A stretch of 64,000 bases of DNA. It comes from Gammaproteobacteria bacterium (lineage in GTDB: Bacteria; Pseudomonadota; Gammaproteobacteria; UBA4575). The notes under the pieces are model-generated. The model had not been told where the DNA came from. It saw nothing but the letters and a program-made list of their open reading frames with translations, and made no database searches. The position numbers were made by a program, and so were the translations under genes. The stretch covers positions 10,101 to 74,100 of the forward strand of contig JABDMD010000001.1 of assembly GCA_013001685.1 (NCBI GenBank), given 5' to 3'. Below are positions 17,342-56,329 of this stretch, in pieces; the first letter of the stretch is position 1, and every line of letters starts with the position of its first letter.

Positions 17342-19291
17342 CTAATTAACCGCGTTGTTTATCGATATATTGGCCGATGAATTTGCTAGTGAATTTGAGT
17401 CTTTATTTTTCTGCGCTTTATTTTTAGGACCATATGTTGCAGTAAGTTCTTCTTTACTCAACAAAAAATGATCCATCACAACTCTTGCCACAGGCGCCGC
17501 GGATTTACTGCCACTTCCACCATTTTCAACAATCACTGCAATCGCAATTCTTGGATCATCAGCCGGAGCAAAGGCTATAAATAATCCATGATCACGTAAT
17601 TTTTCAGCCACATTTTCTTCTTCATATTCTTCATCTTCTGCCAAACCAAATACTTGCGCTGTACCTGTTTTTCCTGCAATTTTATATTTTGCATCTTTAC
17701 CAATTCTAAAGGCTGTACCGTTAGGTTTATGCGCAACATCAACCATCGCAGATATCACTTGATCCCAATACAAATCACTCTCAACATTTACAGTAGGCAT
17801 GGCAGTTGCACTCGCAGGCTCTTCTGCTTGAGCTTGTCTACGTGTTGCACGTAAAAACCTTGGACGTACACCCTGACCACGCATTGCAATCGCACTCGTT
17901 GCAACAGCAAGTTGTAAAGGCGTTGCCAACATATAACCTTGACCAATACCGGTAATTACCGTTTCACCTGGATACCAAGGCTGACCATAAACGGCTTTCT
18001 TCCATTGCACAGACGGCATCAAACCTTTTGCTTCTCCCCATGTATCTAATTCAGTTCGAGAACCTAAATTAAATTGGCTTAAAAATTCTGAAATTTTGTC
18101 GATACCAAGCTCTGTCGCCAGCGTGTAAAAATACACATCACACGATTGAATAATAGCTTTATACATATCAACTTTACCGTGGCCGCCTTTTTTCCAATCA
18201 CGGTATTTTCGCTTATGCCCAGGTAATATATAATAAGGTCCGGCATACATAGTTTCACCCGCCCAGGTTGCGCCATAATGCAATCCAGCTAATGCCATCA
18301 TCGGTTTAATCGTTGAACCTGGCGGATATTGGCCACGCAGTGCACGATTAAATAAAGGACGATCACCATCATCGCGCAGCAACGAGTATTGCTTACTGCT
18401 AATTCCATTTACAAAAAGATTAGGGTCAAAAGTCGGTGTACTTACAAATACTAAAATTTCTCCAGTGACTGGGTCCATCGCTACTACCGAACCATTACGT
18501 TCTCCTAAACTTTCTTGCGCAATTTTTTGTAAGCGTGCGTCAATCGATAAAACTATATCTGCACCAGGTGTGGGTGGCACTTTTTCTAGCACCCGCAACT
18601 TGCGTCCTTGCGCATTAATTTCAATATGCTGATAACCCACTTCGCCATGCAATAAGTTTTCGTAAAATTTTTCTACGCCCACTTTTCCTACATGCGTAGT
18701 ACCACTGTACATTTGTTTATCAAGCTTTTGCGCTTCATCTGCATTTATTCGACCCACATAACCTAATGCATGAGTATTCAATCCAGAAAAAGGATAAAAG
18801 CGATTTGCACGTGCTGTAATTTCAACTCCAGGGAAACGATGACGGTTTACAGAAAACTTAGCAACTTCAATTTCGTTTAAATTTAATTTTAGCGGTATAG
18901 CTTCAAAAGATTGCTTGCGTTTTACATCTTCAAAAAACTTTTTTAAGTGATGCTCTTCTAATTCAATATATTCAGCTAGCTGCTTTACGATTTGTTGGAG
19001 ATCGTCGACTTGAACCGGGGTGATCTCTATTTGATAGCTAGATTTATTATCAGCCAGTAGTTTTAAATTACGGTCAAAAATTAACCCACGTGTTGGTGCG
19101 AGCGGTACCACACGAACTCGATTTTCTTGAGACAAAGTGGCGTAGTGTTCATTGCTGACTATCTGCAGATGAAATAACCTAACCCCTAGCACAAAAATGC
19201 TACAAATAACTAAAAAAGCAACCATATAGACACGCGCCCGGAAAAAACGTTCTTCCAGCTTTGGATTTTTAAGAAAATCTCGTGACGCCAA
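17342..19291 (-). CDS. mrdA: penicillin-binding protein 2 (transpeptidase)
   Basis: 649 aa. N-terminal TM, PBP dimerisation domain, STIK/SxN/KTG motifs. Confidence 0.85.
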   Translation of the reverse strand: MASRDFLKNPKLEERFFRARVYMVAFLVICSIFVLGVRLFHLQIVSNEHYATLSQENRVRVVPLAPTRGLIFDRNLKLLADNKSSYQIEITPVQVDDLQQIVKQLAEYIELEEHHLKKFFEDVKRKQSFEAIPLKLNLNEIEVAKFSVNRHRFPGVEITARANRFYPFSGLNTHALGYVGRINADEAQKLDKQMYSGTTHVGKVGVEKFYENLLHGEVGYQHIEINAQGRKLRVLEKVPPTPGADIVLSIDARLQKIAQESLGERNGSVVAMDPVTGEILVFVSTPTFDPNLFVNGISSKQYSLLRDDGDRPLFNRALRGQYPPGSTIKPMMALAGLHYGATWAGETMYAGPYYILPGHKRKYRDWKKGGHGKVDMYKAIIQSCDVYFYTLATELGIDKISEFLSQFNLGSRTELDTWGEAKGLMPSVQWKKAVYGQPWYPGETVITGIGQGYMLATPLQLAVATSAIAMRGQGVRPRFLRATRRQAQAEEPASATAMPTVNVESDLYWDQVISAMVDVAHKPNGTAFRIGKDAKYKIAGKTGTAQVFGLAEDEEYEEENVAEKLRDHGLFIAFAPADDPRIAIAVIVENGGSGSKSAAPVARVVMDHFLLSKEELTATYGPKNKAQKNKDSNSLANSSANISINNAVN

Positions 19292-19526: not shown

Positions 19527-21533
19527 ATGACCATTGACCAGATACCCGTCATTCTCGGAGGAATAGGCTTAGTAGTTGCCTTTATTATCTATCGAATTAT
19601 TTTGAGTTATTCAGCAGGCAGCGGCAAAGTCGTTGAGATTGGTGAAGAAATTCATAAAGGTGCTATGACCTTTATGCGTCGTGAATATTCTATATTGTTT
19701 ACTTTCGCTGCTTTCGTAGTAGCAGCCATCTGGATCTCAGATCTAGGCTCTAGAACTGCCATCGCGTTTATTATTGGTGCTTTGTGTTCATCCGGAGCGG
19801 GTTATATCGGAATGTACACCGCCACCCGCGCAAACGTACGCACCACTACTGCAGCAAGTGAAAAAGGTGCTGGTGCTGCACTCAATGTTGCTTTCTTTGG
19901 TGGCTCAATTATGGGCCTCACCGTTGCCGCCATGGGCTTACTCGGTCTAGGCGTACTCTATTTAATGTATGGTCGTGATCCTGCAACTGCGAATGTAATT
20001 CACGGCTTCGGCATGGGTGCATCCACAGTAGCATTATTTTCCCGTGTAGGTGGTGGTATCTTCACTAAGAGTGCAGATGTTGGTGCAGACTTAGTAGGAA
20101 AAATTGAAGCTGGCATCCCGGAAGATGATCCACGTAACCCGGGTGTAATTGCCGATAACGTTGGTGATAATGTCGGTGATGTTGCGGGAATGGGTTCCGA
20201 TATTTTTGAATCATATTGCGGATCAATTATTGCCACCATCGCGATTGCAGCAACACTTAGCCCTGCTGTCATTGAACATCTTGGTGCAAAACAAACTCTG
20301 ATGTTTTTGCCACTAGGCCTCGCATCTGTAGGAATTGTTTGTTCTATCCTAGGCATCATTCTAGTCAAAGTATTTTCTGCAAAAGCACCCGCTACGGCAT
20401 TACGAATCGGTACTTTCTCAGCTGCTGTGCTCTTTATCATTGCTGCGTATTTTGTAATACAAGCACTTGCTGTGAGTAATGGCGTATGGGTCGCGGTACT
20501 AACAGGCGCTGTAGGTGGAATTGTTATTGGACTCGTAACCGAGTATTACACCGGTGGTCCTCCTGTAAGAAAAATTGCTAAGGATGGCGAAACTGGTCCT
20601 GCAACCGTAATGATTTCTGGATTAGCTACAGGCATGCAATCAGTGGTTGTTCCAGTGCTATCCATCGCTGCGATAATTTTCTTCGCGAATCATTTTGCTG
20701 ATCTTTATGGTGTTGGGATTGCAGCAGTAGGAATGTTAGCTACGGTAGGAATAACCATGGCGATCGATGCATACGGTCCAGTTGCAGATAATGCAGGCGG
20801 AATTGCAGAAATGGCTGAGCTGGGTGAAGACGTTAGAAAAATTACCGATGGACTTGATGAAGTAGGCAACACAACAGCAGCGATTGGTAAAGGCTTTGCG
20901 ATTGGTGCTGCAGCACTCGCAGCGCTTGCCATCATCACAGCTTTCCTTGCAGAAGTAAGTGCTCATGGTAGCGGTAAAATTATTCTCGATTTAAGTAATC
21001 CGAATGTCTTAATCGGCCTCTTCATTGGTGGCATCTTCCCGTTCATAGTCGCTTCAATGACCATGACCGCAGTAGGCGATGCAGCCTTTGACATGATTAA
21101 AGAAATTCGTCGTCAATTTAAAGAAATCCCTGGCCTGTTAGAAGGCACTGCAAAACCGGATACAGTTCGTTGTGTAGACATCGCAACCACAGCCGCACTA
21201 AAACGCATGATCCCACCAGGCTTGTTAGCGGTAATTGCGCCGGTAGTGGTCGGTTTTGGTTTTGGCGCTGAAACACTTGGCGGCATGCTAGGGGGGGCAT
21301 TACTAGTATGTGTGTTAATGGCCTTAATGATGGCCAACGCCGGTGGTGCATGGGACAACGCTAAAAAGTATGTAGAAAAAGGCAACCTTGGTGGTAAAGG
21401 CTCAGATACGCATACTGCTGTTGTCGTAGGTGACACCGTAGGTGACCCGTTCAAAGACACTTCAGGCCCATCCATGAACATTCTAATTAATGTAATGGCA
21501 ATTGTAAGTTTGGTGATTGCACCGTTACTTTAA
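19527..21533 (+). CDS. hppA: membrane-bound proton-translocating pyrophosphatase
   Basis: 668 aa polytopic protein with H+-PPase motifs ([38 protein letters not shown]). Confidence 0.9.
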
Positions 21534-23717: not shown

Positions 23718-26700
23718 CTATGCAGGGCTTTCCTTCATAGACCTAATCTTTGCAGAAGTATAGTTACGCAAATCATCTGCAATCATATAAAAGCATGGCA
23801 GCACGACCAGTATCAGCATGGTCGCAAAAATCAAACCAAACCCCAAACTTACTGCCATGGGCGAAAGAAATGCAGTTTGACCACTAGCAAAAAATATTAA
23901 CGGCGAAATTCCTAAAAAAGTAGTTACTGTTGTAAGCAAGATCGGGCGAATGCGCACACGCCCTGCTTCAACCAGCGCATCAAAACAATCTTCTCCATCA
24001 GCCATTTTCTTTTTAGCAAAGTCAATCAGTATTAGTGAATCGTTTACAACGATACCCGTCAATGCAAGAAAACCTATCATGGATAAAAACTGCAAGTTAT
24101 AACCAAACAGAATATGGCCAACAATCACACCCACAATCGCAAAAGGTATCGCGAACATGATTACAAATGGATCGAGCAATGATTTAAATAATGCAGCCAA
24201 GATAAAAAAGATTACTGCTAGTGCAATCACTAACATCTTACCTATATCATTAAATGAATCCTGAGCTTCTTTTTTCTCGCCTAAAAACAACAATGAGTAG
24301 CCAAAGTGGTCGTCACTTAAGGTTTTAAATTCTTCTTCTAAAAGTGCAGTTACCTCAAGTGGAGTAATGGCATCCTTATCTACTTCAGCAGTAATTAATG
24401 ACAAACGTTTTGAATCTCGCCGTTGCACTGCACCCAAACCACGACCTAGCTCAATATTAGCAACCTCACCCAAATAAACTGTTCCCCCACTATCTAGAGT
24501 AATTGGTAATCGATTTAATCCTGCGCCATCTTCACGAATCGAATCAGGATAAATTACTCGCACAGGGTAACGATCCGCTTCCCAATTCACTTGCATCACT
24601 TCTAAGCCTAAATAGCCTGTACGAACTGCATCTGCAATTTGGGTTTGCGTAAGACCCAACTCTCGCCCACGTGCATTAATGGTGTATTGATACTCAAGCT
24701 TGCCGGGTTCTAAATCTTGGCGCACATCCCTCACACCAGGTATGCGACGCAAAAACGTTACCACTTCACCCGACAAACTAAGTAACTTTTCAGTCTCTTT
24801 GCCAACAATCCCTACTTCAATGTCCGAACCTGCAGGACCACCTTGTGGACGCAAGATAGAAAAGCGCTGAATACCGGGTATCGTCGCAACACTTTCTCTG
24901 ACTTCATTTAATATGGTTTCTGTACTACGCTCTCTAACGCCTTGCGCTGTAAAACGCATATTCACCAGTGGGCTTACAAATTTTTCGACAACCCCTTTTG
25001 GTTTTGGTTTTTTTAAATCCACCACAAACTGAATATAGTTACTACCAAGCTTTAAACGATTGAAATCAATTAGCGTCACGCCTACATTAGTTAGTAACGT
25101 ATCCAGTTCGTTTTCTTGAAAAATTCCATCGAATCGCTTTTCAATTTCAATAGCAAGTTCAGTAGTATCTTCAATGCTATACGTATTTGGTGCTTCTATA
25201 TTTACTAGGAACTGTCCGATCTCAACATCACCGAATTGATTGTATGGCATATGTGTTTTTGCAAATACTAGCACAACACTTAATACACCAATGGTCGCTG
25301 CAGAAATAAAGTAGCGATTTCGCAGCGCATATTTCACAACAAAAATGTATTTCTCTAACCATTTATTCCAATTAATTCTACTGTGCTTCTTTTTCTTGGT
25401 TAAGCGTAACATTTCAGCCGAATGCGAAGGCAAAACAATAAAGGCTTCTAATAATGAACCAACCAGTGATGCTGTAACCACAACTGGAATCACTTGTATA
25501 AATAAACCCAATGTTCCTGATACACCAAACATTGGTAAGAACGCAGCAACCGTAGTACAAGTAGAAGCCATTACTGGCCAAAATACTTCCTTCGCACCAC
25601 GCTGTGCAGCTGCAACTGCCTGCATACCATTTTCCATATGACGATAAGAATTTTCGGTAACGATGATGGCATCATCCACGATCATTCCCAGCGCAATCAA
25701 GAACGCAAACATTGAAACCATATTAATGGTGTAGCCAAGGTAATAAATAATGATAACGGCAACCAAGAACGAAACTGGTATCCCCATTGCTGTAATCGCA
25801 GCAACTCTAAAATTTAGAAATAAATATAGTGACAATAAGACCAGCACTAATCCCACTGCACCAGAAGACTTTAAAGTTTCTAAACGAGTTTTTACATAGA
25901 TAGATAAATCACTAAACAATCCTACTTTTATTCCAGCTGGGAGTTCCTTTTGCAACTGTGCTGCAAGGTCACGAGTTAATTTTGAAACCTCTATTGTTGA
26001 AGCTTTGGCCGTTTTAGTGATGGTCAGATTAACAGACGGTTTGTTGTTGAAACGCCCTAACGTTTTAGTTTCTTCCAGCCTTAGTTGCACATCAGCAACT
26101 TCGCCTAATACAAGCTGACCTCCACCGCTATCACTACGTAAAACAATCCTTTTAGTAGCTTCAATATTGGGTGCTGCGCCCTTACCTCGCAGCAAAATAT
26201 CCCCTTCCGATGCTTTGAGTGATCCACCTGGCAAATCTCTAAGGTTATTACGCAATGCTGAGATGACTTCGTTTAATGAAACACTGCGTGCAGACATAAT
26301 AAATGGATCAACTTCAACCCATAATTCCCATTCACGCTCACCTGCAATACTTACGCTGGCAACTCCATCAATTTGCTGTAAACGACTTTTAATATCTTTA
26401 GCTGATTGCACCAGCGTACCAGGTGAAACATCTCCATATACACTTAGGCTGATGACTGGAAAACGCGTTTTCAAGCGTGTGATATTTGGTCGTTCGGATT
26501 CTTCTGGAAGATCAGTTATCGCTTCAACTGTTGCACGCAAGTCGCGAACGAATTCATCTACATCTGCGTCTGGCTTGAGATCAATAACAATTTTAGAAAT
26601 GCCTTCATTACTCTCTGATGTGACTACATCAATATCTGGTAATAAATCCAACTCTTCTTCGATAGGTATAGTTACTTGCGATTCAACTTCTTCAGGAGGC

Positions 26701-26861
26701 GCACCTTCAAATTCAGTACTGATACGAACCTTATCAATTTCAACTACCGGAAACATTTCTTGCGGCATACTGCGCCAAGAAATTACACCTAAGACAACAA
26801 TGAGTATTAAAAAAAGATTTACTACGAGAGGATTTTTGATTGAAAAATTAATGATTCCCAT
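23718..26861 (-). CDS. RND-family efflux transporter permease (AcrB/MdtB-like)
   Basis: 1047 aa. 12-TM RND topology with two large periplasmic loops. Confidence 0.85.
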   Translation of the reverse strand: MGIINFSIKNPLVVNLFLILIVVLGVISWRSMPQEMFPVVEIDKVRISTEFEGAPPEEVESQVTIPIEEELDLLPDIDVVTSESNEGISKIVIDLKPDADVDEFVRDLRATVEAITDLPEESERPNITRLKTRFPVISLSVYGDVSPGTLVQSAKDIKSRLQQIDGVASVSIAGEREWELWVEVDPFIMSARSVSLNEVISALRNNLRDLPGGSLKASEGDILLRGKGAAPNIEATKRIVLRSDSGGGQLVLGEVADVQLRLEETKTLGRFNNKPSVNLTITKTAKASTIEVSKLTRDLAAQLQKELPAGIKVGLFSDLSIYVKTRLETLKSSGAVGLVLVLLSLYLFLNFRVAAITAMGIPVSFLVAVIIIYYLGYTINMVSMFAFLIALGMIVDDAIIVTENSYRHMENGMQAVAAAQRGAKEVFWPVMASTCTTVAAFLPMFGVSGTLGLFIQVIPVVVTASLVGSLLEAFIVLPSHSAEMLRLTKKKKHSRINWNKWLEKYIFVVKYALRNRYFISAATIGVLSVVLVFAKTHMPYNQFGDVEIGQFLVNIEAPNTYSIEDTTELAIEIEKRFDGIFQENELDTLLTNVGVTLIDFNRLKLGSNYIQFVVDLKKPKPKGVVEKFVSPLVNMRFTAQGVRERSTETILNEVRESVATIPGIQRFSILRPQGGPAGSDIEVGIVGKETEKLLSLSGEVVTFLRRIPGVRDVRQDLEPGKLEYQYTINARGRELGLTQTQIADAVRTGYLGLEVMQVNWEADRYPVRVIYPDSIREDGAGLNRLPITLDSGGTVYLGEVANIELGRGLGAVQRRDSKRLSLITAEVDKDAITPLEVTALLEEEFKTLSDDHFGYSLLFLGEKKEAQDSFNDIGKMLVIALAVIFFILAALFKSLLDPFVIMFAIPFAIVGVIVGHILFGYNLQFLSMIGFLALTGIVVNDSLILIDFAKKKMADGEDCFDALVEAGRVRIRPILLTTVTTFLGISPLIFFASGQTAFLSPMAVSLGFGLIFATMLILVVLPCFYMIADDLRNYTSAKIRSMKESPA

Positions 26862-28211: not shown

Positions 28212-30467
28212 GTGTTGACAAAAGCCTTAAGCAAGCTGTGTGTATCCGTTTTAACGCTAGCATGCATACTCTTATGTACCTGGGCCCAGGCAGCAGATAG
28301 TCCTTATGGCCTATGCAGTGACAGCTCAGTAACGGAGTCTAGCCAGAAAGTTATACCTATAGACCCCAATATCCCTGCAGAGTTTACCGCAGATCAAGCA
28401 AAACGCGATGAAAATGGAATCGCAATATTAGAAGGTACTGTGCATATGAAGCGTGGCACACAGAAAGTCGACGCAGAAAAACTTGAATATGACGAAAACA
28501 ATAAACACGTTACCGCAAGTGGCAATGTTCGGGCCGAAGATCAACAACTAATAATCAAAAGCCAAGAAGCAGAACTTAATCTGGAAACTGATTATGCAAA
28601 ATCGAATGACGCCAGTTACTTCTATAAGCCACTACATGCAAGCGGCAAAGCAAAAAGTATTGAACGTAAATCAGCTGACTTTGTGCGATTTGAAAACACA
28701 ACCTATAGCACATGCGAAGAAGACGATCGCACATGGGAATTATCTGCCGATGAAGTTGACTTAGACAAAAATACTGGCGACGGTATCGGAAGAGATGTAA
28801 CCGTAAAATTTAAAGGAGTGCCGATCTTTTATACACCTTGGATTCGTTTTCCAATTGACGATCGACGCAAAACTGGATTCTTAACCCCAACAATCGGCAA
28901 TTCAAATAATTCTGGATTTGAACTTGAAACACCATGGTATTGGAATATTGCACCAAACAAAGATGCTATTTTTGCGCCAAAATTACTGACTGATAGAGGC
29001 TTACAACTGAAATCTAATTTTCGATATTTAAATCAGAAAAGTTATGGTCAATTTGGCTTGGAATACTTGGACGACAGCGAATTTAAAGATGATCGGTATT
29101 TGACGAATTTTAAACATCTCAGTCAATTTACACCTAAATTACAACTTGATCTGTTATATAATAAAGTCTCAGATGAGAACTATTTTGAAGACTTGGGTGA
29201 TGGTTTAGGCATTACCAGCACCTCATTCCTTGAGCGTCGCAGTGACCTTAATTATAACACTGAACATTGGAATTTTTTGGCACGCGCGCAAAGCTTTCAA
29301 GTTACTGATGAGAGCATACTTAATGTTGACAAACCTTTTAAACGTGTACCGCAAATTAAATTGGATAGTAATTATTACAACCTGCTCAGTGGATTTGATC
29401 TCAGCTCCGAAAGTGAATGGGTGCAGTTTGAACACGACGACAAAATTGATGGCGACCGCCTGCATTTAGGTATTGAACTTGAGCATCCCTTTGAGAGTAA
29501 CGCTTTCTTTATTCGCCCTGGCGCACGACTTACGCATACTGAATATGATTTAAATCGTAGAGATGGTGTAGATAACAAACCTTCGCGCAGTTTGCCCAGT
29601 GCACATTTAGATGCAGGACTAATATTTGAAAAGAATTTAAAAAAATCAGCCCACATTCAAACTTTAGAGCCACGTTTATACTACTTACACACGCCATTTC
29701 GTAATCAAGAAGATATTCCAATATTTGATACTGATGAATATGATTTTGGTTTTGAACAATTATTTCGTGATGATCGCTTCAGCGGTAGTGATCGAATTGG
29801 AGATGCCGATCGTTTAAGTGTTGGTTTTACTACACGTGTACTTGATCTTGAAGATGGTAGTGAAAAATTCCGCGCCAGCTTAGGACGAATCTTTTATTTT
29901 CGTGACCGTAAAGTTACTCTACCTGATGAACCCCGCGAGAATGAGGATTCTTCAGAAATTGCGGCCGAACTCAAAATTGGTCTGCATGATCGCTGGGAAG
30001 CTATTGCATCGGTTCTTTATGATACGCATGATGACGAAACTGAAAGAAACTCAGTACGCTTTCAATACCACAGTGAGAATGATTTTATCTTCAACATGTC
30101 TTATCGTTACCGTAACAGAGATATTGAGCCTATCGACCCACTAACCAACAGACGCGTTAGTCTTGAACAATCTGATATTTCTATGGTGCTACCAATCAAT
30201 GAGCATTGGCGGGCTGTAACACGCTGGAACTATGACTTACAAGAAAAACGCAACTTAGAGCAATTAGTAGGGGTCGAATACGACACTTGCTGTTGGAAGC
30301 TACGCCTGGCAGGACGGCGCTATAATCAAAACACTGATGAAGACTATAATAATACTATAGAGCTTCAGCTTGTATTAAAGGGATTGGGCCAAATAGGATC
30401 ACCGATTGGTGAATTACTTGAACGTGGCATTCGTGGTTATGATGCCAGAGATGATGAGTATTTTTAA
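28212..30467 (+). CDS. lptD: LPS-assembly outer-membrane protein LptD
   Basis: 751 aa with signal peptide and OstA N-terminal domain; conserved position upstream of surA. Confidence 0.85.
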   Translation: MLTKALSKLCVSVLTLACILLCTWAQAADSPYGLCSDSSVTESSQKVIPIDPNIPAEFTADQAKRDENGIAILEGTVHMKRGTQKVDAEKLEYDENNKHVTASGNVRAEDQQLIIKSQEAELNLETDYAKSNDASYFYKPLHASGKAKSIERKSADFVRFENTTYSTCEEDDRTWELSADEVDLDKNTGDGIGRDVTVKFKGVPIFYTPWIRFPIDDRRKTGFLTPTIGNSNNSGFELETPWYWNIAPNKDAIFAPKLLTDRGLQLKSNFRYLNQKSYGQFGLEYLDDSEFKDDRYLTNFKHLSQFTPKLQLDLLYNKVSDENYFEDLGDGLGITSTSFLERRSDLNYNTEHWNFLARAQSFQVTDESILNVDKPFKRVPQIKLDSNYYNLLSGFDLSSESEWVQFEHDDKIDGDRLHLGIELEHPFESNAFFIRPGARLTHTEYDLNRRDGVDNKPSRSLPSAHLDAGLIFEKNLKKSAHIQTLEPRLYYLHTPFRNQEDIPIFDTDEYDFGFEQLFRDDRFSGSDRIGDADRLSVGFTTRVLDLEDGSEKFRASLGRIFYFRDRKVTLPDEPRENEDSSEIAAELKIGLHDRWEAIASVLYDTHDDETERNSVRFQYHSENDFIFNMSYRYRNRDIEPIDPLTNRRVSLEQSDISMVLPINEHWRAVTRWNYDLQEKRNLEQLVGVEYDTCCWKLRLAGRRYNQNTDEDYNNTIELQLVLKGLGQIGSPIGELLERGIRGYDARDDEYF

Positions 30468-46113: not shown

Positions 46114-46389
46114 ATGAAAGTCTTTTCGATATTCATTCTCTTCCCTCTTTCAGCATTTGTCATTGGTATTATCTTTCTAGTTTTATATAAAAAATCTAAA
46201 TCTAAAATCTCAATGATTACCGGAATACTCTGGGTGCTATATTCGATATACGAATTTCTTATATACATACGAATATTATGCACAGGCGAATGCAATATTC
46301 GAATAGATTTATTAATTATATACCCTCTGCTAGTATTTCTTTCGCTAGCTTCTATATTTTTTTACTTCACCCGCAAAAATAAAACATGA
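46114..46389 (+). CDS. small integral membrane protein
   Basis: 91 aa, 3 TM; its stop overlaps the next start. Confidence 0.4.
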   Translation: MKVFSIFILFPLSAFVIGIIFLVLYKKSKSKISMITGILWVLYSIYEFLIYIRILCTGECNIRIDLLIIYPLLVFLSLASIFFYFTRKNKT

Positions 46390-46877
46390 GTGAAAAAAGA
46401 TATTTATATAAACCTAAAATACTCACATATGTTTTAGTTACTATAGGATTTGCAATAGCTGGAGCAATATTAAGCAAAGTTGCTTTATCTAATACTCAAG
46501 GTGTAATTATAAATCGCTTCATTGAGCTCTCTGTTAAGAATGCAACTATTTTTTACTGGTGCCTAGTTGGCGCTTCTGCAATATTTGTTGTCATAGGTAT
46601 TCTATGCATTTACTCAGCTATTACCTCAAAAAACGAAATTATCCTTACCGATACAGGGTTTTCAGCACCGAAAAGACTGATTGGTAATAAGACAGTCTCC
46701 ATAAACTATTCAGACATAACTCATTTAGCACCTATCAATGTTCACAGACAAAAGATGCTTATAATTAAGCATATAAATAGAAATATAACTATTCAACAAA
46801 GCGCAATGCCAAATAAACAAGCGTATGATGAAGTCGTAAATATCATTACAACTAAAGCACAGTCTTTAAAAGGTTAA
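46386..46877 (+). CDS. membrane protein with a C-terminal bacterial PH-like domain
   Basis: 163 aa: 2 TM helices followed by a soluble beta-rich domain. Confidence 0.4.
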   Translation: MSEKRYLYKPKILTYVLVTIGFAIAGAILSKVALSNTQGVIINRFIELSVKNATIFYWCLVGASAIFVVIGILCIYSAITSKNEIILTDTGFSAPKRLIGNKTVSINYSDITHLAPINVHRQKMLIIKHINRNITIQQSAMPNKQAYDEVVNIITTKAQSLKG

Positions 46878-53124: not shown

Positions 53125-53328
53125 CACATGTCGGGTACCACTGCGGTACAGGTGTGCTTCCTGGTATTTCCCTTGAGCCTATTTTTATCCTCCGGGGGCA
53201 ATGCTGTTTAAATGTTGATGTGCATATCCGTTCTGCGGAGAGCCTAATTCATTTTTCGGTGCTCCCACTTGAACCTTTGGTTCAAGGACAACGGCTGCCA
53301 CGGTATTCGTGGGGTACCCACATTTTTA
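53125..53328 (+). ncRNA. ssrS: 6S RNA
   Basis: Immediately after zapA, as in E. coli. The 3' half (CACUUGAACCUUUGGUUCAAGGACAACGGCUGCCACGGUAUUCGUGGGGUACCC) aligns with E. coli 6S (ACCUUGAACCAAGGGUUCAAGGGUUACAGCCUGCGGCGGCAUCUCGGAGA). The closing stem GGGUACC (53133-53139) pairs with GGUACCC (53313-53319), and a T5 run follows. Confidence 0.7.
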
Positions 53329-53367: not shown

Positions 53368-53820
53368 ATGCAACATTGGCTTATGAAAAGCGAACCAAGC
53401 GAATTCAGTATTGATGATTTAAAGCGAGTTAAAGTAGAACCCTGGGACGGTGTGCGCAATTATCAAGCACGCAACATGATGAATAAAGAGATGAAAAAAG
53501 GTGATTTAGCCTTTATGTATCATTCCAATTGCGATGAGATTGGAATTGTTGGAATCATGACAATCGCACGTGAAGGTTACGTTGATCACACTGCCTTTGA
53601 CAAAAAGGATAAACACTACGATCCAAAAAGTAATCCTGAAAACCCACGCTGGTTTATGGTTGACGTGCGTTATAAGCGAAAACTAAAACGCACTATTACT
53701 CTTGCGGAATTAAAAGAGCATAAAAAATTAGCCGAAATGCAGTTGTTAAAACGCGGAAACCGACTCTCAATCATGCCGGTTAGCAAAAAACATTGGGATT
53801 TTATTCTCTCTTTAGAGTGA
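53368..53820 (+). CDS. EVE (PUA-like) domain protein
   Basis: MQHWLMKSEP..FSIDDL start, with an SD 8 nt upstream; EVE-domain pattern throughout. Confidence 0.75.
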   Translation: MQHWLMKSEPSEFSIDDLKRVKVEPWDGVRNYQARNMMNKEMKKGDLAFMYHSNCDEIGIVGIMTIAREGYVDHTAFDKKDKHYDPKSNPENPRWFMVDVRYKRKLKRTITLAELKEHKKLAEMQLLKRGNRLSIMPVSKKHWDFILSLE

Positions 53821-54262
53821 TTTTTTACAGAAAATTGTAAAAATTTTTGTAATTTTTTCTAAATTTCGCAAAAAAACTAGTTTTTTTAAAAAAATTTACA
53901 GTTTTTTTAATATTTTTTAAAAAAAATTTCGCATTGTTTTTCTACATTAAATTACGTTTTATTAATTAAAAAAACGTTGCAAACAAACTACAAAATTTCA
54001 GTAAACTTTGCTTAATTTTAGCAAAATGCTTGTTGTTATGTTAAATAAATAGCGATTTTTACTGTTTTCCAGGTGAATACTGTCACACTTTTTGAAACTT
54101 AAAAAACGTTTTGTAAATTTTAAAACTAAAAAAGTTTAACAAACTAAAAAACATTAACGATGGAAAGCTATAAAAACACTACAAAAATACTAGTATTTAT
54201 AGATTAAATATATATACTTTGGCGCGTTTACAACTAACATTAATTGTTTGGAGGGAGTATTG
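53821..54262 (+). promoter_or_regulatory. ORF-free A/T-tract (predicted curved) region upstream of the H1-like gene
   Basis: Alternating A- and T-tracts at about 10-bp spacing. Duplicated motifs AAATTTCGCA (x2) and AACAAACTA(C)AAAA (x2). Ends with the SD GGAGGG. Confidence 0.4.
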
Positions 54263-54619
54263 ATGGCCATCAAACGTAAATCTACCACTAAACGTCGCGT
54301 TACAAAACGTAAGGCGACTAAACGTAAGGCTACGAAACGCAAATCTACTGCGAAGCGCAAAACTGCGAAACGCAAGACTAAGCGTAAAACAAAACGTAAG
54401 ACTACTAAACGTAAGACTGCGAAGCGTAAGACTAAACGTAAGACTGCGAAGCGTAAGACTAAGCGTAAGACTGCGAAGCGCAAGACTGCGAAGCGTAAGA
54501 CTAAGCGCAAGACTGCAAAGCGTAAGGTCAAACGTAAGACTAAACGCAAGACTGCAAAGCGTAAGGTCAAACGTAAGACTACTAAACGCAAAACTAAGCG
54601 GAAGACTAAACGTCGTTGA
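54263..54619 (+). CDS. histone H1-like lysine-rich nucleoid protein
   Basis: 118 aa made of KRKT(A/K)KRK units (MAIKRKSTTKRRVTKRKATKRK...), with a strong SD and a terminator. Resembles Hc1/Hq1/BpH1/AlgP-type proteins. Confidence 0.75.
   Translation: MAIKRKSTTKRRVTKRKATKRKATKRKSTAKRKTAKRKTKRKTKRKTTKRKTAKRKTKRKTAKRKTKRKTAKRKTAKRKTKRKTAKRKVKRKTKRKTAKRKVKRKTTKRKTKRKTKRR
54380..54600 (+). repeat. coding tandem repeats (27-bp and 39-bp units)
   Basis: aaacgtaagactgcgaagcgtaagact x2; cgcaagactgcaaagcgtaaggtcaaacgtaagact x2; further degenerate 12/15-bp units. Confidence 0.6.
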
Positions 54620-54643
54620 TAGTCGCTGGATTAAACATCCAAA

Positions 54644-54677
54644 CAAAAAAGGGCTCTTAATAGAGCCCTTTTTTTAT
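54644..54677. terminator. bidirectional Rho-independent terminator (H1-like gene / ilvA)
   Basis: aaaaaaGGGCTCTTaaTAGAGCCCttttttt. The A-tract and T-tract on either side let it act on both strands. Confidence 0.7.
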
Positions 54678-54814
54678 GACGATAGTTTATGCTTCTAGAG
54701 ACTGCTATCTAGGCTTGCAAATAGCTTTATCTATAGGGTTTGCGTTAAATCACGCTAAGCTATCGTCAGCCAAGAAACAATTTGTAAACCGGATTATTCA
54801 CTTCGGAAAATAAC

Positions 54815-56329
54815 TTAGCCAAGGAAAAGTTTATACACTGGATTGCTGGTTTCTTCCCAATATCGATAACCTAATTTTTCTAAAAACTCATCAAAACGAG
54901 AGCGCTGGGAATCAGGCACCTGTATGCCAACCAACACACGCCCATATGCAGCACCATGGTTACGATAGTGAAATAAACTTATATTCCAGTCAGTACCTAT
55001 CGTTTCTAAAAATTTTAATAACGCACCAGGGCGTTCTGGGAATTCAAATCTAAATAGGATCTCATCTTGTATCTGAGTACAGTGTCCACCCACCATATGA
55101 CGCAAATGCAAAATCGCCATTTCATTATCCGAAATATCCAGTGCCGCATAACCATCGGTATTCATAGCTTTTAGTAGCTGCTCTTTTTCCTTATCAGCAT
55201 CCTCGACTTTCACACCAACAAAAATATGTGCAGCTTGGTTATCCGCATAACGATAGTTAAACTCGGTAATTCCGCGTGCACCCAGGATTCGACAGAACTT
55301 CAAAAAACTACCTGGCTGCTCTGGAATAGTTACGGCAAATAAACATTCACGACGTTCACCTAGCTCAGCACGCTCGGCAACATGACGTAAACGATCGAAG
55401 TTGATGTTCGCACCACAATTGATCCCGACTAAAGTCTGCCTGGTAACTTTTTCTCTGGAAATATATTGTTTAATACCGGCTAAAGATAAAGCACCTGCAG
55501 GTTCTACCAATGTACGTGTTTCATCAAAGATATCTTTGATCCCAGCACAGATATCATCGGTGGTTACTAGCAGCACTTCATCGATAAGATCTTTGGCAAT
55601 TGCATAGGTTTTTTCACCTATTTGCCGTACTGCAACCCCGTCAGCAAATATGCCTACTTGCTCTAATTCGACTCTTTTCTGAGCTTTTAACGCAGCATGC
55701 ATGGTGGGTGCATCTTGCGGCTCTACCCCGATTATCTTTATTTCTGGTCGATAATGCTTGATGTAGGCTGCCATTCCGGCTACTAAACCACCACCGCCAA
55801 TTGCGATAAATATGGCATCAATTTTCCCTGGATGCTGCTTTAGTATTTCCATCGCGATCGTACCCTGCCCAGCAATCACATCTTCATCATCATAAGGATG
55901 CACATAGATAAGATTTTGTTGCTCAGCTAGTTGCAAAGAGTGCTGATGTGCTTCGTCATAGGTATCACCAAACAAAATGGCTTTGCCGCCTAAGCGAGTT
56001 ACCGATTCAACTTTGATATTGGGTGTTGTCGTCGGCATCACAATAGTTGCAGGAATTCCAAGTTTATTTGCAGCTAATGCCACACCTTGCGCATGATTAC
56101 CGGCAGATGCAGCAATTACGCCTTGTTTACGTTCTGCTGCAGAGAGATGTGCGATTTTGTTGTAAGCCCCCCTGAGCTTGAAAGAAAAGACACTTTGCAA
56201 GTCTTCTCGTTTCAGATAAATATTATTAGCAAGTCGCGCCGAGATAACTTTTGCATGGTCAAGTGGCGTTACAATCGCCACATCATAGACCTTGGAATTT
56301 TCTATTTTTTTAATTAGTTGCTGATTCAC
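54815..56329 (-). CDS. ilvA: biosynthetic threonine dehydratase
   Basis: 504 aa. PLP fold-II domain (SFKLRGA) plus two C-terminal ACT-like regulatory domains. Confidence 0.85.
   Translation of the reverse strand: MNQQLIKKIENSKVYDVAIVTPLDHAKVISARLANNIYLKREDLQSVFSFKLRGAYNKIAHLSAAERKQGVIAASAGNHAQGVALAANKLGIPATIVMPTTTPNIKVESVTRLGGKAILFGDTYDEAHQHSLQLAEQQNLIYVHPYDDEDVIAGQGTIAMEILKQHPGKIDAIFIAIGGGGLVAGMAAYIKHYRPEIKIIGVEPQDAPTMHAALKAQKRVELEQVGIFADGVAVRQIGEKTYAIAKDLIDEVLLVTTDDICAGIKDIFDETRTLVEPAGALSLAGIKQYISREKVTRQTLVGINCGANINFDRLRHVAERAELGERRECLFAVTIPEQPGSFLKFCRILGARGITEFNYRYADNQAAHIFVGVKVEDADKEKEQLLKAMNTDGYAALDISDNEMAILHLRHMVGGHCTQIQDEILFRFEFPERPGALLKFLETIGTDWNISLFHYRNHGAAYGRVLVGIQVPDSQRSRFDEFLEKLGYRYWEETSNPVYKLFLG

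What the first reader, a model, noticed from the sequence alone, without database searches (positions are those of the whole stretch)
53821..54680. Histone H1-like nucleoid protein built from tandem DNA repeats, behind a 440-bp ORF-free A/T-tract region
Seen in the sequence: CDS 54263-54619, with a strong GGAGGG SD and its own bidirectional terminator, encodes 118 aa that are more than half Lys/Arg, made of KRKT(A/K)KRK units. The DNA itself is a tandem-repeat array, with 27-bp units and a clean 39-bp tandem duplication, so copy number could change by slipped-strand mispairing. The 53821-54262 region upstream has no ORF on either strand, is extremely AT-rich with alternating A- and T-tracts at roughly helical periodicity, and carries two pairs of duplicated motifs (AAATTTCGCA; AACAAACTA(C)AAAA). 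Established knowledge: eukaryotic-H1-like proteins in bacteria (Chlamydia Hc1/Hc2, Coxiella Hq1, Bordetella BpH1, Pseudomonas AlgP) compact the chromosome, are often stage-regulated, and BpH1 length varies through its repeats. Inference: this is a developmentally or stationary-phase regulated nucleoid-condensing protein with a length-variable repeat region, and the curved upstream DNA is its regulatory platform or a preferred binding site.
Basis: partly seen in the sequence, partly recalled or inferred. Interest (0 to 1): 0.6.

Follow-up and report, generated by a model that had tools for sequence, protein, structure and literature searches.

The report
Conserved polycationic histone-tail-like repeat protein gene
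A real, single-copy gene in an uncultured marine gammaproteobacterium encodes a 118-residue protein that is 64% lysine/arginine and built from KRKT(A) repeats. It most likely coats and compacts DNA like the tail of histone H1, so it is a new member of a known class rather than something categorically new.

Summary
CDS 54263-54619 (+) encodes 118 aa (48 K, 27 R, 25 T, 11 A; net +75) built from KRKT/KRKTA units. It has a GGAGGG Shine-Dalgarno, a strong bidirectional terminator and a DNA-level tandem array. Upstream lies a 442-bp, 21% GC, ORF-free spacer.

The gene sits in the same place (EVE gene -> AT-rich spacer -> this gene -> <- ilvA) in all 33 related genomes that have enough sequence, and in deeper lineages too. 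Its length ranges from 77 to about 160 aa, through gain and loss of 4-5-residue units.

A core promoter is conserved across all of them: an A-run, a CTAG-centred palindrome at the -35 position, 17 bp, then TATACT. The spacer is predicted to be the most curved DNA in the 64-kb window, and the same holds in most relatives.

The protein has no globular domain and passes no histone-like HMM (Hc1, Hc2, Burkholderia-type, linker histone). Similar repeats occur fused to HU, winged-helix, RHH, SWIB and DksA domains elsewhere.

Best reading: a stand-alone polycationic nucleoid protein resembling the H1 tail, Hc2 or BpH1. Nothing supports stationary-phase or developmental control; a GC-rich discriminator in the window's own and some related lineages hints at growth-linked control instead. 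Rivals are RNA binding (PhaF-like) and polyphosphate binding (AlgP-like).

The parts
53368..53820 (+). EVE-domain gene (context; conserved upstream neighbour). The real start is ATG 53368, not the TTG at 53269 that overlaps the 6S RNA.
   Evidence: Pfam EVE E = 1.6e-60. Orthologues are 60-97% identical in 50 loci.
53821..54262 (.). AT-rich intergenic spacer (442 bp, 21% GC) with no ORF of 30 aa or more lying in the spacer
   Evidence: No Rfam match and no conserved RNA structure.
53821..53990 (.). Distal block of phased A/T tracts, with predicted peak intrinsic curvature near 53855
   Evidence: 10.0-bp periodicity, z = 5.4. The end-to-end/contour ratio is 0.374 against a window mean of 0.952, the most curved 126 bp in 64 kb. 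0 of 500 dinucleotide shuffles are as curved. The sequence is poorly conserved, but the curvature is conserved.
54032..54045 (+). Invariant distal element GTTGTTATGTTAAA. It may be a protein-binding site or an extended -10 promoter (TG-t-TATGTT).
   Evidence: Exact in 21 loci. In most it lies about 231 bp before the ATG (211-233; 164 in L017), although the DNA in between is not conserved.
54146..54189 (+). Conserved A-rich block upstream of the promoter, with two A5 tracts 11 bp apart (UP-element-like)
   Evidence: Nearly invariant columns in alignments A1 and A2. The UP-element reading is inference.
54185..54198 (.). Perfect 14-bp palindrome AAATACTAGTATTT. CTAGTA (54190-54195) sits at the -35 position. 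Likely operator or activator site.
   Evidence: CTAG lies 62-76 nt before the ATG in 29 of 31 related loci, at -52 in L040, and is absent in L047. CTAGYA-N16-18-TATACT occurs once per locus, and wherever the gene could be read it lies just upstream of it (35 loci).
54213..54218 (+). -10 hexamer TATACT
   Evidence: Invariant in every clade examined, including the deepest.
54221..54226 (+). GC-rich discriminator GGCGCG between the -10 and the predicted start site (about 54225)
   Evidence: Conserved as GGCGCG, AGCGCG, CACGTCG or CGCGTTG in the window's clade and the L014, L027 and L050 lineages, inside spacers of 18-42% GC. It is weak or absent in L023, L029/L035, L043 and L045-L047. The link to stringent control is inferred from established promoter biology.
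54250..54255 (+). Shine-Dalgarno GGAGGG, 7 nt before the ATG
   Evidence: GGAGG is kept in nearly all clades.
54263..54619 (+). CDS: 118-aa polycation made of KRKT, KRKTA and KRKV units
   Evidence: The frame is intact in every complete orthologue except L014's aberrant tail, and indels are whole repeat units.
54305..54608 (+). DNA tandem-repeat array (units of 12 and 15 bp, higher-order periods of 27, 39, 42 and 69 bp)
54494..54571 (+). Two tandem 39-bp copies, 38/39 identical
54645..54674 (.). Bidirectional intrinsic terminator (A6, GGGCTCT, loop, AGAGCCC, T7), shared with the convergent ilvA (54815-56329, minus strand)
   Evidence: An analogous hairpin follows the gene in L037.

Best explanation
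The gene encodes a stand-alone, intrinsically unstructured or helix-prone polycation: +75 net charge on 118 residues, with three basic residues in every 4-5. It most likely binds the chromosome electrostatically and without sequence specificity. In doing so it would neutralise phosphate charge and bridge or compact DNA, as the C-terminal tail of histone H1, chlamydial Hc2 and Bordetella BpH1 do.

It is a core chromosomal gene of a broad clade of uncultured Gammaproteobacteria. It is monocistronic, running from its own promoter (UP-like A-tracts, a CTAG palindrome at -35, TATACT) to its own terminator, and it has a strong ribosome-binding site. The palindrome at -35 and the curved upstream DNA are where its level is set, possibly including feedback by the protein itself.

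The repeat array expands and contracts by unit-length indels, through slippage or unequal recombination. This tunes length while keeping charge density.

Shown: gene reality, composition, synteny, promoter conservation, length variation, and predicted curvature.
Inferred: DNA as the ligand, compaction, expression level, and the regulator.
For: 1. The gene is in the same position and orientation in all 33 loci of the clade with EVE identity of 76% or more that have enough sequence. It is also in deeper lineages (EVE 60-69% identical). The frame is intact in all complete copies except L014's aberrant tail, and K+R is 42-67%.
2. The promoter, 5'UTR length and SD are conserved far beyond the protein sequence. 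This indicates orthology and selection on expression.
3. There is no globular fold. AlphaFold gives a single helix over residues 8-117, and there is no Pfam, NCBIfam or PDB hit.
4. A profile of the family finds similar K/R/T/A repeats as tails on DNA-binding or transcription modules. These include HU (P0026, and P0063 with a KRKTAKRKTV tail), BlaI/MarR winged helix, RHH, SWIB and DksA. Many of them carry Pfam HC2 hits.
5. Some orthologues give sub-threshold HC2 matches.
6. Arg codons are 26/27 CGT/CGC and Thr is 84% ACT, against 61% and 35% in window genes. This fits high expression but is confounded by repeat amplification.
7. Precedents: the Hc2 and BpH1 repeat proteins bind DNA and vary in size (PMC2848022).
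Against: - No experiment or expression data exist for this lineage.
- Composition alone cannot distinguish DNA from RNA or polyphosphate as the ligand. The KPAA tail of PhaF binds specific mRNAs (PMC12818456), and AlgP sits on polyphosphate granules (PMC9239181).
- A charge density of 0.64 per residue is nearer protamine than H1 or Hc2, so behaviour may differ.
- Domain-fusion evidence comes from low-complexity matches that need not be homologous.
- The curvature model used wedge parameters recalled from memory.
Confidence: 0.55

Rival explanations
1. The protein is a late-stage or stationary-phase (sigma-S or developmental) nucleoid condenser like Hc1/Hc2 of Chlamydia or Hq1 of Coxiella. It would be switched on to shut the chromosome down.
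For: The -10 TATACT (CTATACT in the deepest lineages) fits the sigma-S-preferred -10, which is established E. coli knowledge. The gene lies next to the ZapAB-6S RNA-EVE unit, which Bell et al. speculate acts in growth-phase shifts (PMC7641849). Hq1 and ScvA are enriched in the Coxiella small cell variant (PMC4766238).
Against: The GC-rich discriminator, present in the window's own and several other lineages, and the UP-like A-tracts resemble growth-rate-controlled promoters (inference). BpH1, the closest free-standing repeat protein with data, is exponential-phase (PMC2848022). Nothing in the window suggests a developmental cycle; its gene content is an ordinary free-living Gram-negative backbone. 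The invariant CTAG palindrome points to a dedicated regulator rather than a sigma switch.
Confidence: 0.15
2. The protein is mainly an RNA-binding polycation. It could be an mRNA or ribosome-associated factor that modulates translation or RNA stability, as shown for the disordered KPAA tail of PhaF.
For: PhaF's lysine-rich disordered tail binds specific transcripts and activates translation (PMC12818456). The promoter has features shared with the translation-machinery class in several lineages (GC-rich discriminator). The neighbours are RNA-related: 6S RNA, and EVE as a reader of modified bases.
Against: The repeats differ (KRKT versus KPAA) and there is no ordered partner domain. The fusions found are mostly to DNA-binding domains. 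No conserved RNA element was detected nearby.
Confidence: 0.15
3. The protein tethers or organises polyphosphate, or another polyanionic inclusion, relative to the nucleoid, as AlgP does in Pseudomonas.
For: AlgP's H1-like repeat tail is required for polyP granule spacing (PMC9239181). A +75 polycation would bind polyP avidly (inference).
Against: There is no N-terminal helical domain like that of AlgP or PhaF. No polyP genes are linked in the window. This was not tested.
Confidence: 0.08
4. The ORF is a non-coding artefact of a DNA tandem repeat, or the real product is read from the opposite strand (the 133- and 149-aa L/R/F-rich ORFs).
For: Long ORFs exist in other frames of the repeat. Exact-sequence look-ups and HMM searches found no database orthologue.
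Against: Across more than 40 genomes the K/R frame is always kept, despite many indels and a complete change of repeat unit. The ATG, SD, promoter and terminator are conserved on the + strand.
Confidence: 0.02

Closest known systems
Chlamydia Hc2 (HctB), Pfam PF07382 / NCBIfam NF038052
   Same: It is a stand-alone, almost wholly repetitive basic protein built from 4-6-residue K/R + A/T/V units. Its length varies through gain and loss of repeat units. Some orthologues give weak HC2 HMM matches.
   Different: It is below every curated cut-off: the window protein has no hit, L030 scores 22.6 against 40 bits, and L014 scores 14.7 against 135. It has three basic residues per unit rather than two and is rich in arginine. 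It shows no 36-aa higher-order element. The host is a gammaproteobacterium with no known developmental cycle.
Bordetella BpH1 / Burkholderiales histone H1-like protein (NF038053)
   Same: It is a free-standing lysine-rich pentamer protein in a free-living proteobacterium, with size polymorphism. Its promoter features are compatible with growth-phase expression, as reported for BpH1.
   Different: The HMM score is far below the cut-off (13 against 80 bits for one orthologue, none for the window protein). The repeat is different (KRKT(A) versus A/K-rich), and the genomic context differs.
Coxiella burnetii Hq1 (HcbA)
   Same: It is a small (~13 kDa), very basic DNA-binding protein in a gammaproteobacterium with about 42% GC.
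   Different: Hq1 is reported as specific to the C. burnetii / Coxiella-like endosymbiont clade and enriched in the small cell variant (10.1101/2022.10.26.513839; PMC4766238). This organism is not Coxiella: the closest records are marine MAGs labelled Thiotrichales or Gammaproteobacteria.
AlgP / PhaF C-terminal KPAA domain (Pseudomonas)
   Same: It is a tandem basic tetrapeptide array that is predicted to be disordered. Repeat number differs between strains or species, and it binds polyanions.
   Different: AlgP and PhaF carry an ordered N-terminal domain and proline-containing KPAA units of lower charge. Their shown roles are polyP granule spacing and mRNA binding, not bulk compaction.
C-terminal domain of eukaryotic linker histone H1; protamines
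   Same: It is a low-complexity polycation whose composition rather than sequence is conserved. It probably gains helicity on nucleic-acid binding. Its charge density (0.64 per residue) is protamine-like.
   Different: It has no winged-helix globular domain and, in this clade, no S/TPKK motifs. The resemblance is compositional, not demonstrable homology.
HU and other DNA-binding proteins with lysine-rich repeat tails (e.g. P0026 and P0063 found here; mycobacterial HupB type)
   Same: These tails use nearly the same repeat words, for example KRKTAKRKTV.
   Different: There the repeat is an appendage of a folded DNA-binding domain. Here it is the whole protein.

Membership tests
Eukaryotic linker histone H1/H5 | Winged-helix globular domain (Pfam Linker_histone) flanked by basic tails | tested here: not met
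   No Pfam hit at E up to 10. AlphaFold shows one continuous helix and no globular domain.
Chlamydial Hc2 (HctB) | Match to Pfam PF07382 / NCBIfam NF038052 above the curated cut-off | tested here: not met
   The window protein has no hit. Of 12 orthologues, 4 match at E < 10, the best at 1.8e-6. L030 scores 22.6 bits against a cut-off of 40, and L014 scores 14.7 against 135.
Chlamydial Hc2 (HctB) | Consecutive basic pentamer or hexamer repeats whose number varies between strains | tested here: met
   There are 25 units of KRKT, KRKTA and KRKV. Length is 118-143+ aa among near-identical relatives and 77 to about 160 aa across the clade. Variation within a single species was not observed.
Chlamydial Hc2 / Hc1, Coxiella Hq1 | Late-developmental or stationary-phase expression with nucleoid condensation | not testable with these tools
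   No expression data. Promoter features are ambiguous.
Chlamydial Hc1 (HctA) | Conserved N-terminal dimerisation domain (Pfam Hc1) | tested here: not met
   No Pfam hit. The N-terminus is itself basic repeat-like sequence.
Burkholderiales/Bordetella H1-like protein (NF038053; BpH1) | HMM match above the cut-off (80 bits) | tested here: not met
   13 bits for orthologue L014 and none for the window protein.
AlgP / PhaF | Ordered N-terminal helical or phasin domain plus KPAA repeats | tested here: not met
   The sequence has no non-repeat domain and no KPAA.
Coxiella Hq1 (HcbA) | Sequence similarity to HcbA | not tested
Intrinsic (Rho-independent) terminator | GC-rich hairpin followed by a U-run; for a bidirectional one, an A-run in front | tested here: met
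Sigma-70-type promoter | -35 close to TTGACA and -10 close to TATAAT at 16-18 bp | tested here: inconclusive
   The -10 TATACT matches 5/6 and is invariant. The -35 position holds CTAGTA (2/6), so the scan did not call it. Conservation argues that it is the promoter, with a factor site at -35.

The most novel reading that the evidence does not exclude
A protamine-density polycation is a universal, single-copy chromatin component of a whole uncultured marine gammaproteobacterial lineage. It would run a self-sensing circuit. Its own promoter sits in the most curved, AT-rich DNA of the region, with an invariant CTAG palindrome at -35 and a fixed-distance distal box. This promoter would be bound by the protein itself or by a dedicated partner, so that expression tracks the amount of uncoated DNA. 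Repeat-number drift would then tune chromosome compaction between species.
Probability: 0.2. Interest if true: 0.6.

Novelty: new member of a known kind. Interest (0 to 1): 0.4.

Why it matters
Lysine-rich 'H1-like' proteins are scattered through bacteria but cannot be traced by sequence, because they are low-complexity. Here, synteny and a deeply conserved promoter give an independent handle on orthology. They show one such gene persisting across a broad clade while its repeat unit is completely rewritten (KRKT, AKKAVKRKT, KKKA, AAPKRKTAKK).

That makes this a clean natural series for asking what is selected in a disordered polycation: charge density, length, or the termini. It also identifies a probable major chromatin protein in an uncultured marine group.

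A practical point is that the AT-rich spacer and the array break or corrupt many metagenome assemblies at this locus.

Tried and rejected
- Exact-sequence look-ups of the protein (both starts), of the EVE neighbour and of 10 orthologues found nothing. Only rpiA matched, on a 1.4-kb ENA contig.
- Single-sequence homology searches were crippled by composition correction. They gave 2 weak hits, 5 weak hits among 1.84 billion representatives, and none for the L040 orthologue.
- The PDB profile search gave only sigma-factor low-complexity noise.
- Rfam at relaxed thresholds and RNAalifold found no RNA element in the spacer.
- A minus-strand promoter (TTAACA-18-TAAAAT) overlaps the distal box. I rejected it because its -10 is not conserved in relatives.
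- A repression loop between two CTAG palindromes (53873 and 54186) was rejected because the distal one is not conserved.
- A near match to the promoter pattern at 46330 lies inside an ORF and is probably chance.
- No second genome of the same species carrying the array was found, so polymorphism within a population is untested.
Full report
**What is there.** The + strand carries a 357-bp CDS at 54263-54619. Its product has 118 residues: 48 Lys, 27 Arg, 25 Thr, 11 Ala, 3 Val, 2 Ser, 1 Met and 1 Ile. K+R is 63.6% and the net charge is +75. Read as units it is MAIKRKSTT, KRRVT, KRKAT x2 and KRKSTA, followed by 20 units of KRKT, KRKTA, KRKTT or KRKV.

GGAGGG (54250-54255) lies 7 nt before the ATG. 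The earlier TTG at 54248 overlaps that Shine-Dalgarno, and orthologues that begin directly with MA(I/V/T)K exclude it as the start.

A hairpin lies at 54645-54674: an A6 run, a 7-bp GC-rich stem and a T7 run. The 71-nt stretch 54615-54685 that contains it folds at -23.6 kcal/mol, z = -5.3, with no shuffle as stable. Its symmetry lets it terminate both this gene and the convergent ilvA (54815-56329).

At DNA level the CDS is a tandem array. TRF finds periods of 15, 27, 39, 42 and 69 bp. There is a 32-nt exact repeat at distance 27 and a 37-nt exact repeat at distance 39. Two tandem 39-bp copies (54494-54571) are 38/39 identical.

The 442-bp spacer 53821-54262 is 21% GC. It contains no ORF of 30 aa or more lying in the spacer on either strand.

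**Is it a gene?** Yes. I used the upstream EVE-domain protein as an anchor and fetched 80 loci from species-representative genomes. Every locus with EVE identity of 76% or more and enough downstream sequence (33 of 33) has a K/R-rich ORF in the same place and orientation. Two of these have N-runs inside the array.

The gene is also present in deeper lineages with EVE only 60-69% identical (L043, L045, L046, L047, L050). It is absent from others, including Woeseiaceae- and Xanthomonadales-labelled MAGs.

The gene order is EVE, AT-rich spacer, this gene, then ilvA on the opposite strand, wherever the downstream gene was examined. The surrounding block is ubiH-like, pepP and ygfB on the minus strand, then zapB, zapA, 6S RNA and EVE. 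This is the published ZapB-ZapA-SsrS-(FAU1)-EVE / YgfB-PepP-UbiH neighbourhood, with RpiA and IlvA nearby (PMC7641849). In that paper no passage retrieved with the search terms 'histone' or 'lysine-rich' refers to a basic gene here.

The K/R frame survives every indel, and it survives a complete turnover of the repeat unit:
- KRKT(A) in the window's clade
- AKKAVKRKTAKRKT in the L014 clade
- KKKTAKRKTAKRKTV in the L027 clade
- AAPKRKTAKK in L029 and L037
- KKKA in L045, L046 and L050
- APKAKAAPKRK in L040

The long ORFs on the other strand are mirror images of the repeat and can be dismissed.

**Length variation.** A scan of metagenome contigs with the leader sequence added eight near relatives. 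Their first 39 residues and last ~17 residues are almost identical to the window's. The middle differs by insertions and deletions of KRKT or KRKTA units, giving 118 to at least 143 aa.

The closest array-bearing relative is L084, 93.8% identical across 54078-55778. It encodes 142 aa against 118 here. Across the whole clade, complete copies range from 77 to about 160 aa. The 192-aa L014 product has an aberrant hydrophobic tail and looks like an assembly frameshift.

This supports rapid unit-wise expansion and contraction. I found no second genome of the same species, and repeats are error-prone in assemblies, so polymorphism within a population remains untested.

**The upstream region.** They are:
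1. An invariant core: an A-run, CTAGTA (54190-54195), 17 bp, then TATACT (54213-54218).
2. A GC-rich patch just after the -10. It is GGCGCG at 54221-54226, and AGCGCG, CACGTCG or CGCGTTG in the L014, L027 and L050 lineages. It is weak or absent in some others (L023, L029/L035, L043, L045-L047).
3. A leader of about 37 nt and the Shine-Dalgarno.
4. A conserved A-rich block at 54146-54189, with two A5 tracts 11 bp apart.
5. An invariant 14-mer, GTTGTTATGTTAAA (54032-54045). In most of 21 loci it lies about 231 bp (211-233) before the ATG, and 164 bp in L017, although the DNA in between is not conserved.

The pattern CTAGYA-N16-18-TATACT occurs exactly once per locus in 35 loci. Wherever the gene could be read, it lies just upstream of it. 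CTAG sits 62-76 nt before the ATG in 29 of 31 loci, at -52 in L040, and is absent in L047.

In the window, CTAG is the centre of a perfect 14-bp palindrome, AAATACTAGTATTT. CTAGTA is a poor sigma-70 -35 (2/6), which is why the consensus scan missed this promoter. Its invariance suggests a dimeric regulator bound at -35.

The distal 14-mer can be read as an extended -10 (TG-t-TATGTT) or as a protein site. A minus-strand promoter reading fails on conservation. No Rfam family and no conserved RNA fold is present.

**Curvature.** A and T tracts alternate with a 10.0-bp period. The z-score is 4.6 for the whole spacer and 5.4 for the distal 180 bp, reached by 0 and 2 of 500 shuffles.

I also ran a wedge-model trajectory. 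The Bolshoy/Trifonov parameters were recalled from memory, so the result needs re-checking. It makes the 126 bp centred near 53855 the most curved segment of the whole 64-kb window, with an end-to-end/contour ratio of 0.374 against a mean of 0.952. The promoter region near 54199 comes second. None of 500 dinucleotide-preserving shuffles of the spacer is as curved.

In 19 of 31 related loci this spacer holds the most curved stretch of the 9-20 kb examined, and in nearly all others it is in the top 1%. This holds even though the distal sequence is not conserved and one subclade has only a 136-bp spacer. Predicted curvature upstream of this gene is therefore a conserved property.

**What the protein is.** It matches no Pfam or NCBIfam model. 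Four of 12 orthologues give sub-threshold matches to Pfam HC2. One example is L030, at 22.6 bits against a cut-off of 40. One orthologue scores 14.7 against 135 bits on NCBIfam Hc2 and 13 against 80 on the Burkholderia-type H1-like model.

AlphaFold, run on the single sequence, gives one uninterrupted helix over residues 8-117 (pLDDT 92.6, pTM 0.43) and no globular domain. I read that as helical propensity in a protein that cannot fold alone with +75 charge.

A profile of the family retrieves similar repeats as tails on HU, BlaI/MarR winged-helix, ribbon-helix-helix, SWIB, DUF1508 and DksA proteins. One example is P0063, an HU with a KRKTAKRKTV tail. Many of these carry Pfam HC2 hits. These are compositional matches, not proven homology. 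They do show where bacteria deploy this kind of sequence: mostly on DNA-binding and transcription proteins.

**How it most likely works.** The best-supported model is a non-specific electrostatic DNA binder. It would neutralise and bridge DNA, acting as a nucleoid-associated protein equivalent to a free-standing H1 tail, Hc2 or BpH1. I put this at about 0.55.

Expression looks strong and controlled, given the UP-like A-tracts, a near-consensus -10, a strong SD and a private terminator. Arg codons are 96% CGT/CGC and Thr is 84% ACT, against 61% and 35% in neighbouring genes. That bias is partly a by-product of repeat amplification.

The regulatory logic is inferred only. In the window's own and several other lineages the GC-rich discriminator resembles stringently controlled, growth-linked promoters. 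BpH1 is exponential-phase and dispensable (PMC2848022).

The rival ligands are real possibilities. The KPAA tail of PhaF binds mRNAs and activates translation (PMC12818456). AlgP's tail organises polyphosphate granules (PMC9239181).

**Novelty.** This is a new member of the known, compositionally defined class of bacterial H1-tail-like repeat proteins. It fails the sequence-defined tests for Hc1, Hc2, the Burkholderia/BpH1 type, AlgP/PhaF and linker histone.

What is new here:
- the charge density, which is unusually high (protamine-like)
- the clade-wide synteny
- the deeply conserved non-canonical promoter
- the conserved predicted curvature

The finding is interesting for bacterial chromatin and for the evolution of disordered proteins. 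It is not categorically new.

Noticed in passing
window 53135-53318 (+): A 6S RNA (ssrS) lies between zapA and the EVE gene (Rfam RF00013, 62.2 bits). The mechanical ORF starting at TTG 53269 overlaps it. The EVE gene really starts at ATG 53368.
   Followed up: partly
L002, L011, L021, L024, L025, L038, L039 (contig ends); L004, L029, L035, L043 (gene cut); L036 10598-11038 and L037 7414-7513 (N-runs): Many short-read MAG contigs stop inside the AT-rich spacer or inside the repeat array. Two records have N-runs in the array. This locus is a systematic assembly break point, so the gene is probably under-annotated in databases.
   Followed up: partly
L014 10593-11171: In this chromosome-level MAG the orthologue ends in a long non-basic tail (KKPLKKPLSARLP...). 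It looks like a frameshift error or a recent frameshift. Its sister L015 has a normal 147-aa product.
   Followed up: no
window 53873-53884: A second perfect CTAG palindrome (AAAACTAGTTTT) lies 313 bp upstream of the promoter palindrome. These are the only two exact matches to AAWACTAGTWTT in 64 kb, but the distal one is not conserved in relatives.
   Followed up: yes
window 54246-54275: The SD region GUUUGGAGG can pair with codons 3-5 (GCCAUCAAAC). All the pairs are conserved in 15 genomes, but there is no covariation, so a translational switch is neither supported nor excluded.
   Followed up: partly
5'UTR, window about 54230-54240, and the same position in L008, L014, L045, L046, L050: A short AACTCA / AACTAA motif about 8-15 nt after the predicted start site recurs even in the deepest lineages, where the rest of the leader differs.
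   Followed up: no
P0081 (315 aa), P0026 and P0063 (database proteins): DksA and HU homologues carry N-terminal K-rich repeat tails of more than 100 residues. They recall Streptomyces DdbA, an H1-like + DksA-like protein (PMC3643593). The DksA one is from a gammaproteobacterial MAG.
   Followed up: no
window 46330-46358 (+): There is a one-mismatch match to the CTAGTA-N17-TATACT promoter pattern (CTAGTA...TATATT). It lies inside a small hydrophobic ORF (46114-46389), just before ORF 46386-46877. It is probably chance.
   Followed up: partly
window 19527-21533, 23718-26861, 28212-30467, 17342-19291: The rest of the window is ordinary Gram-negative chromosomal backbone: H+-pyrophosphatase, AcrB-type pump, LptD, PBP2-type transpeptidase and a DEAD-box helicase. 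Nothing suggests a mobile element or an obligate intracellular lifestyle.
   Followed up: partly
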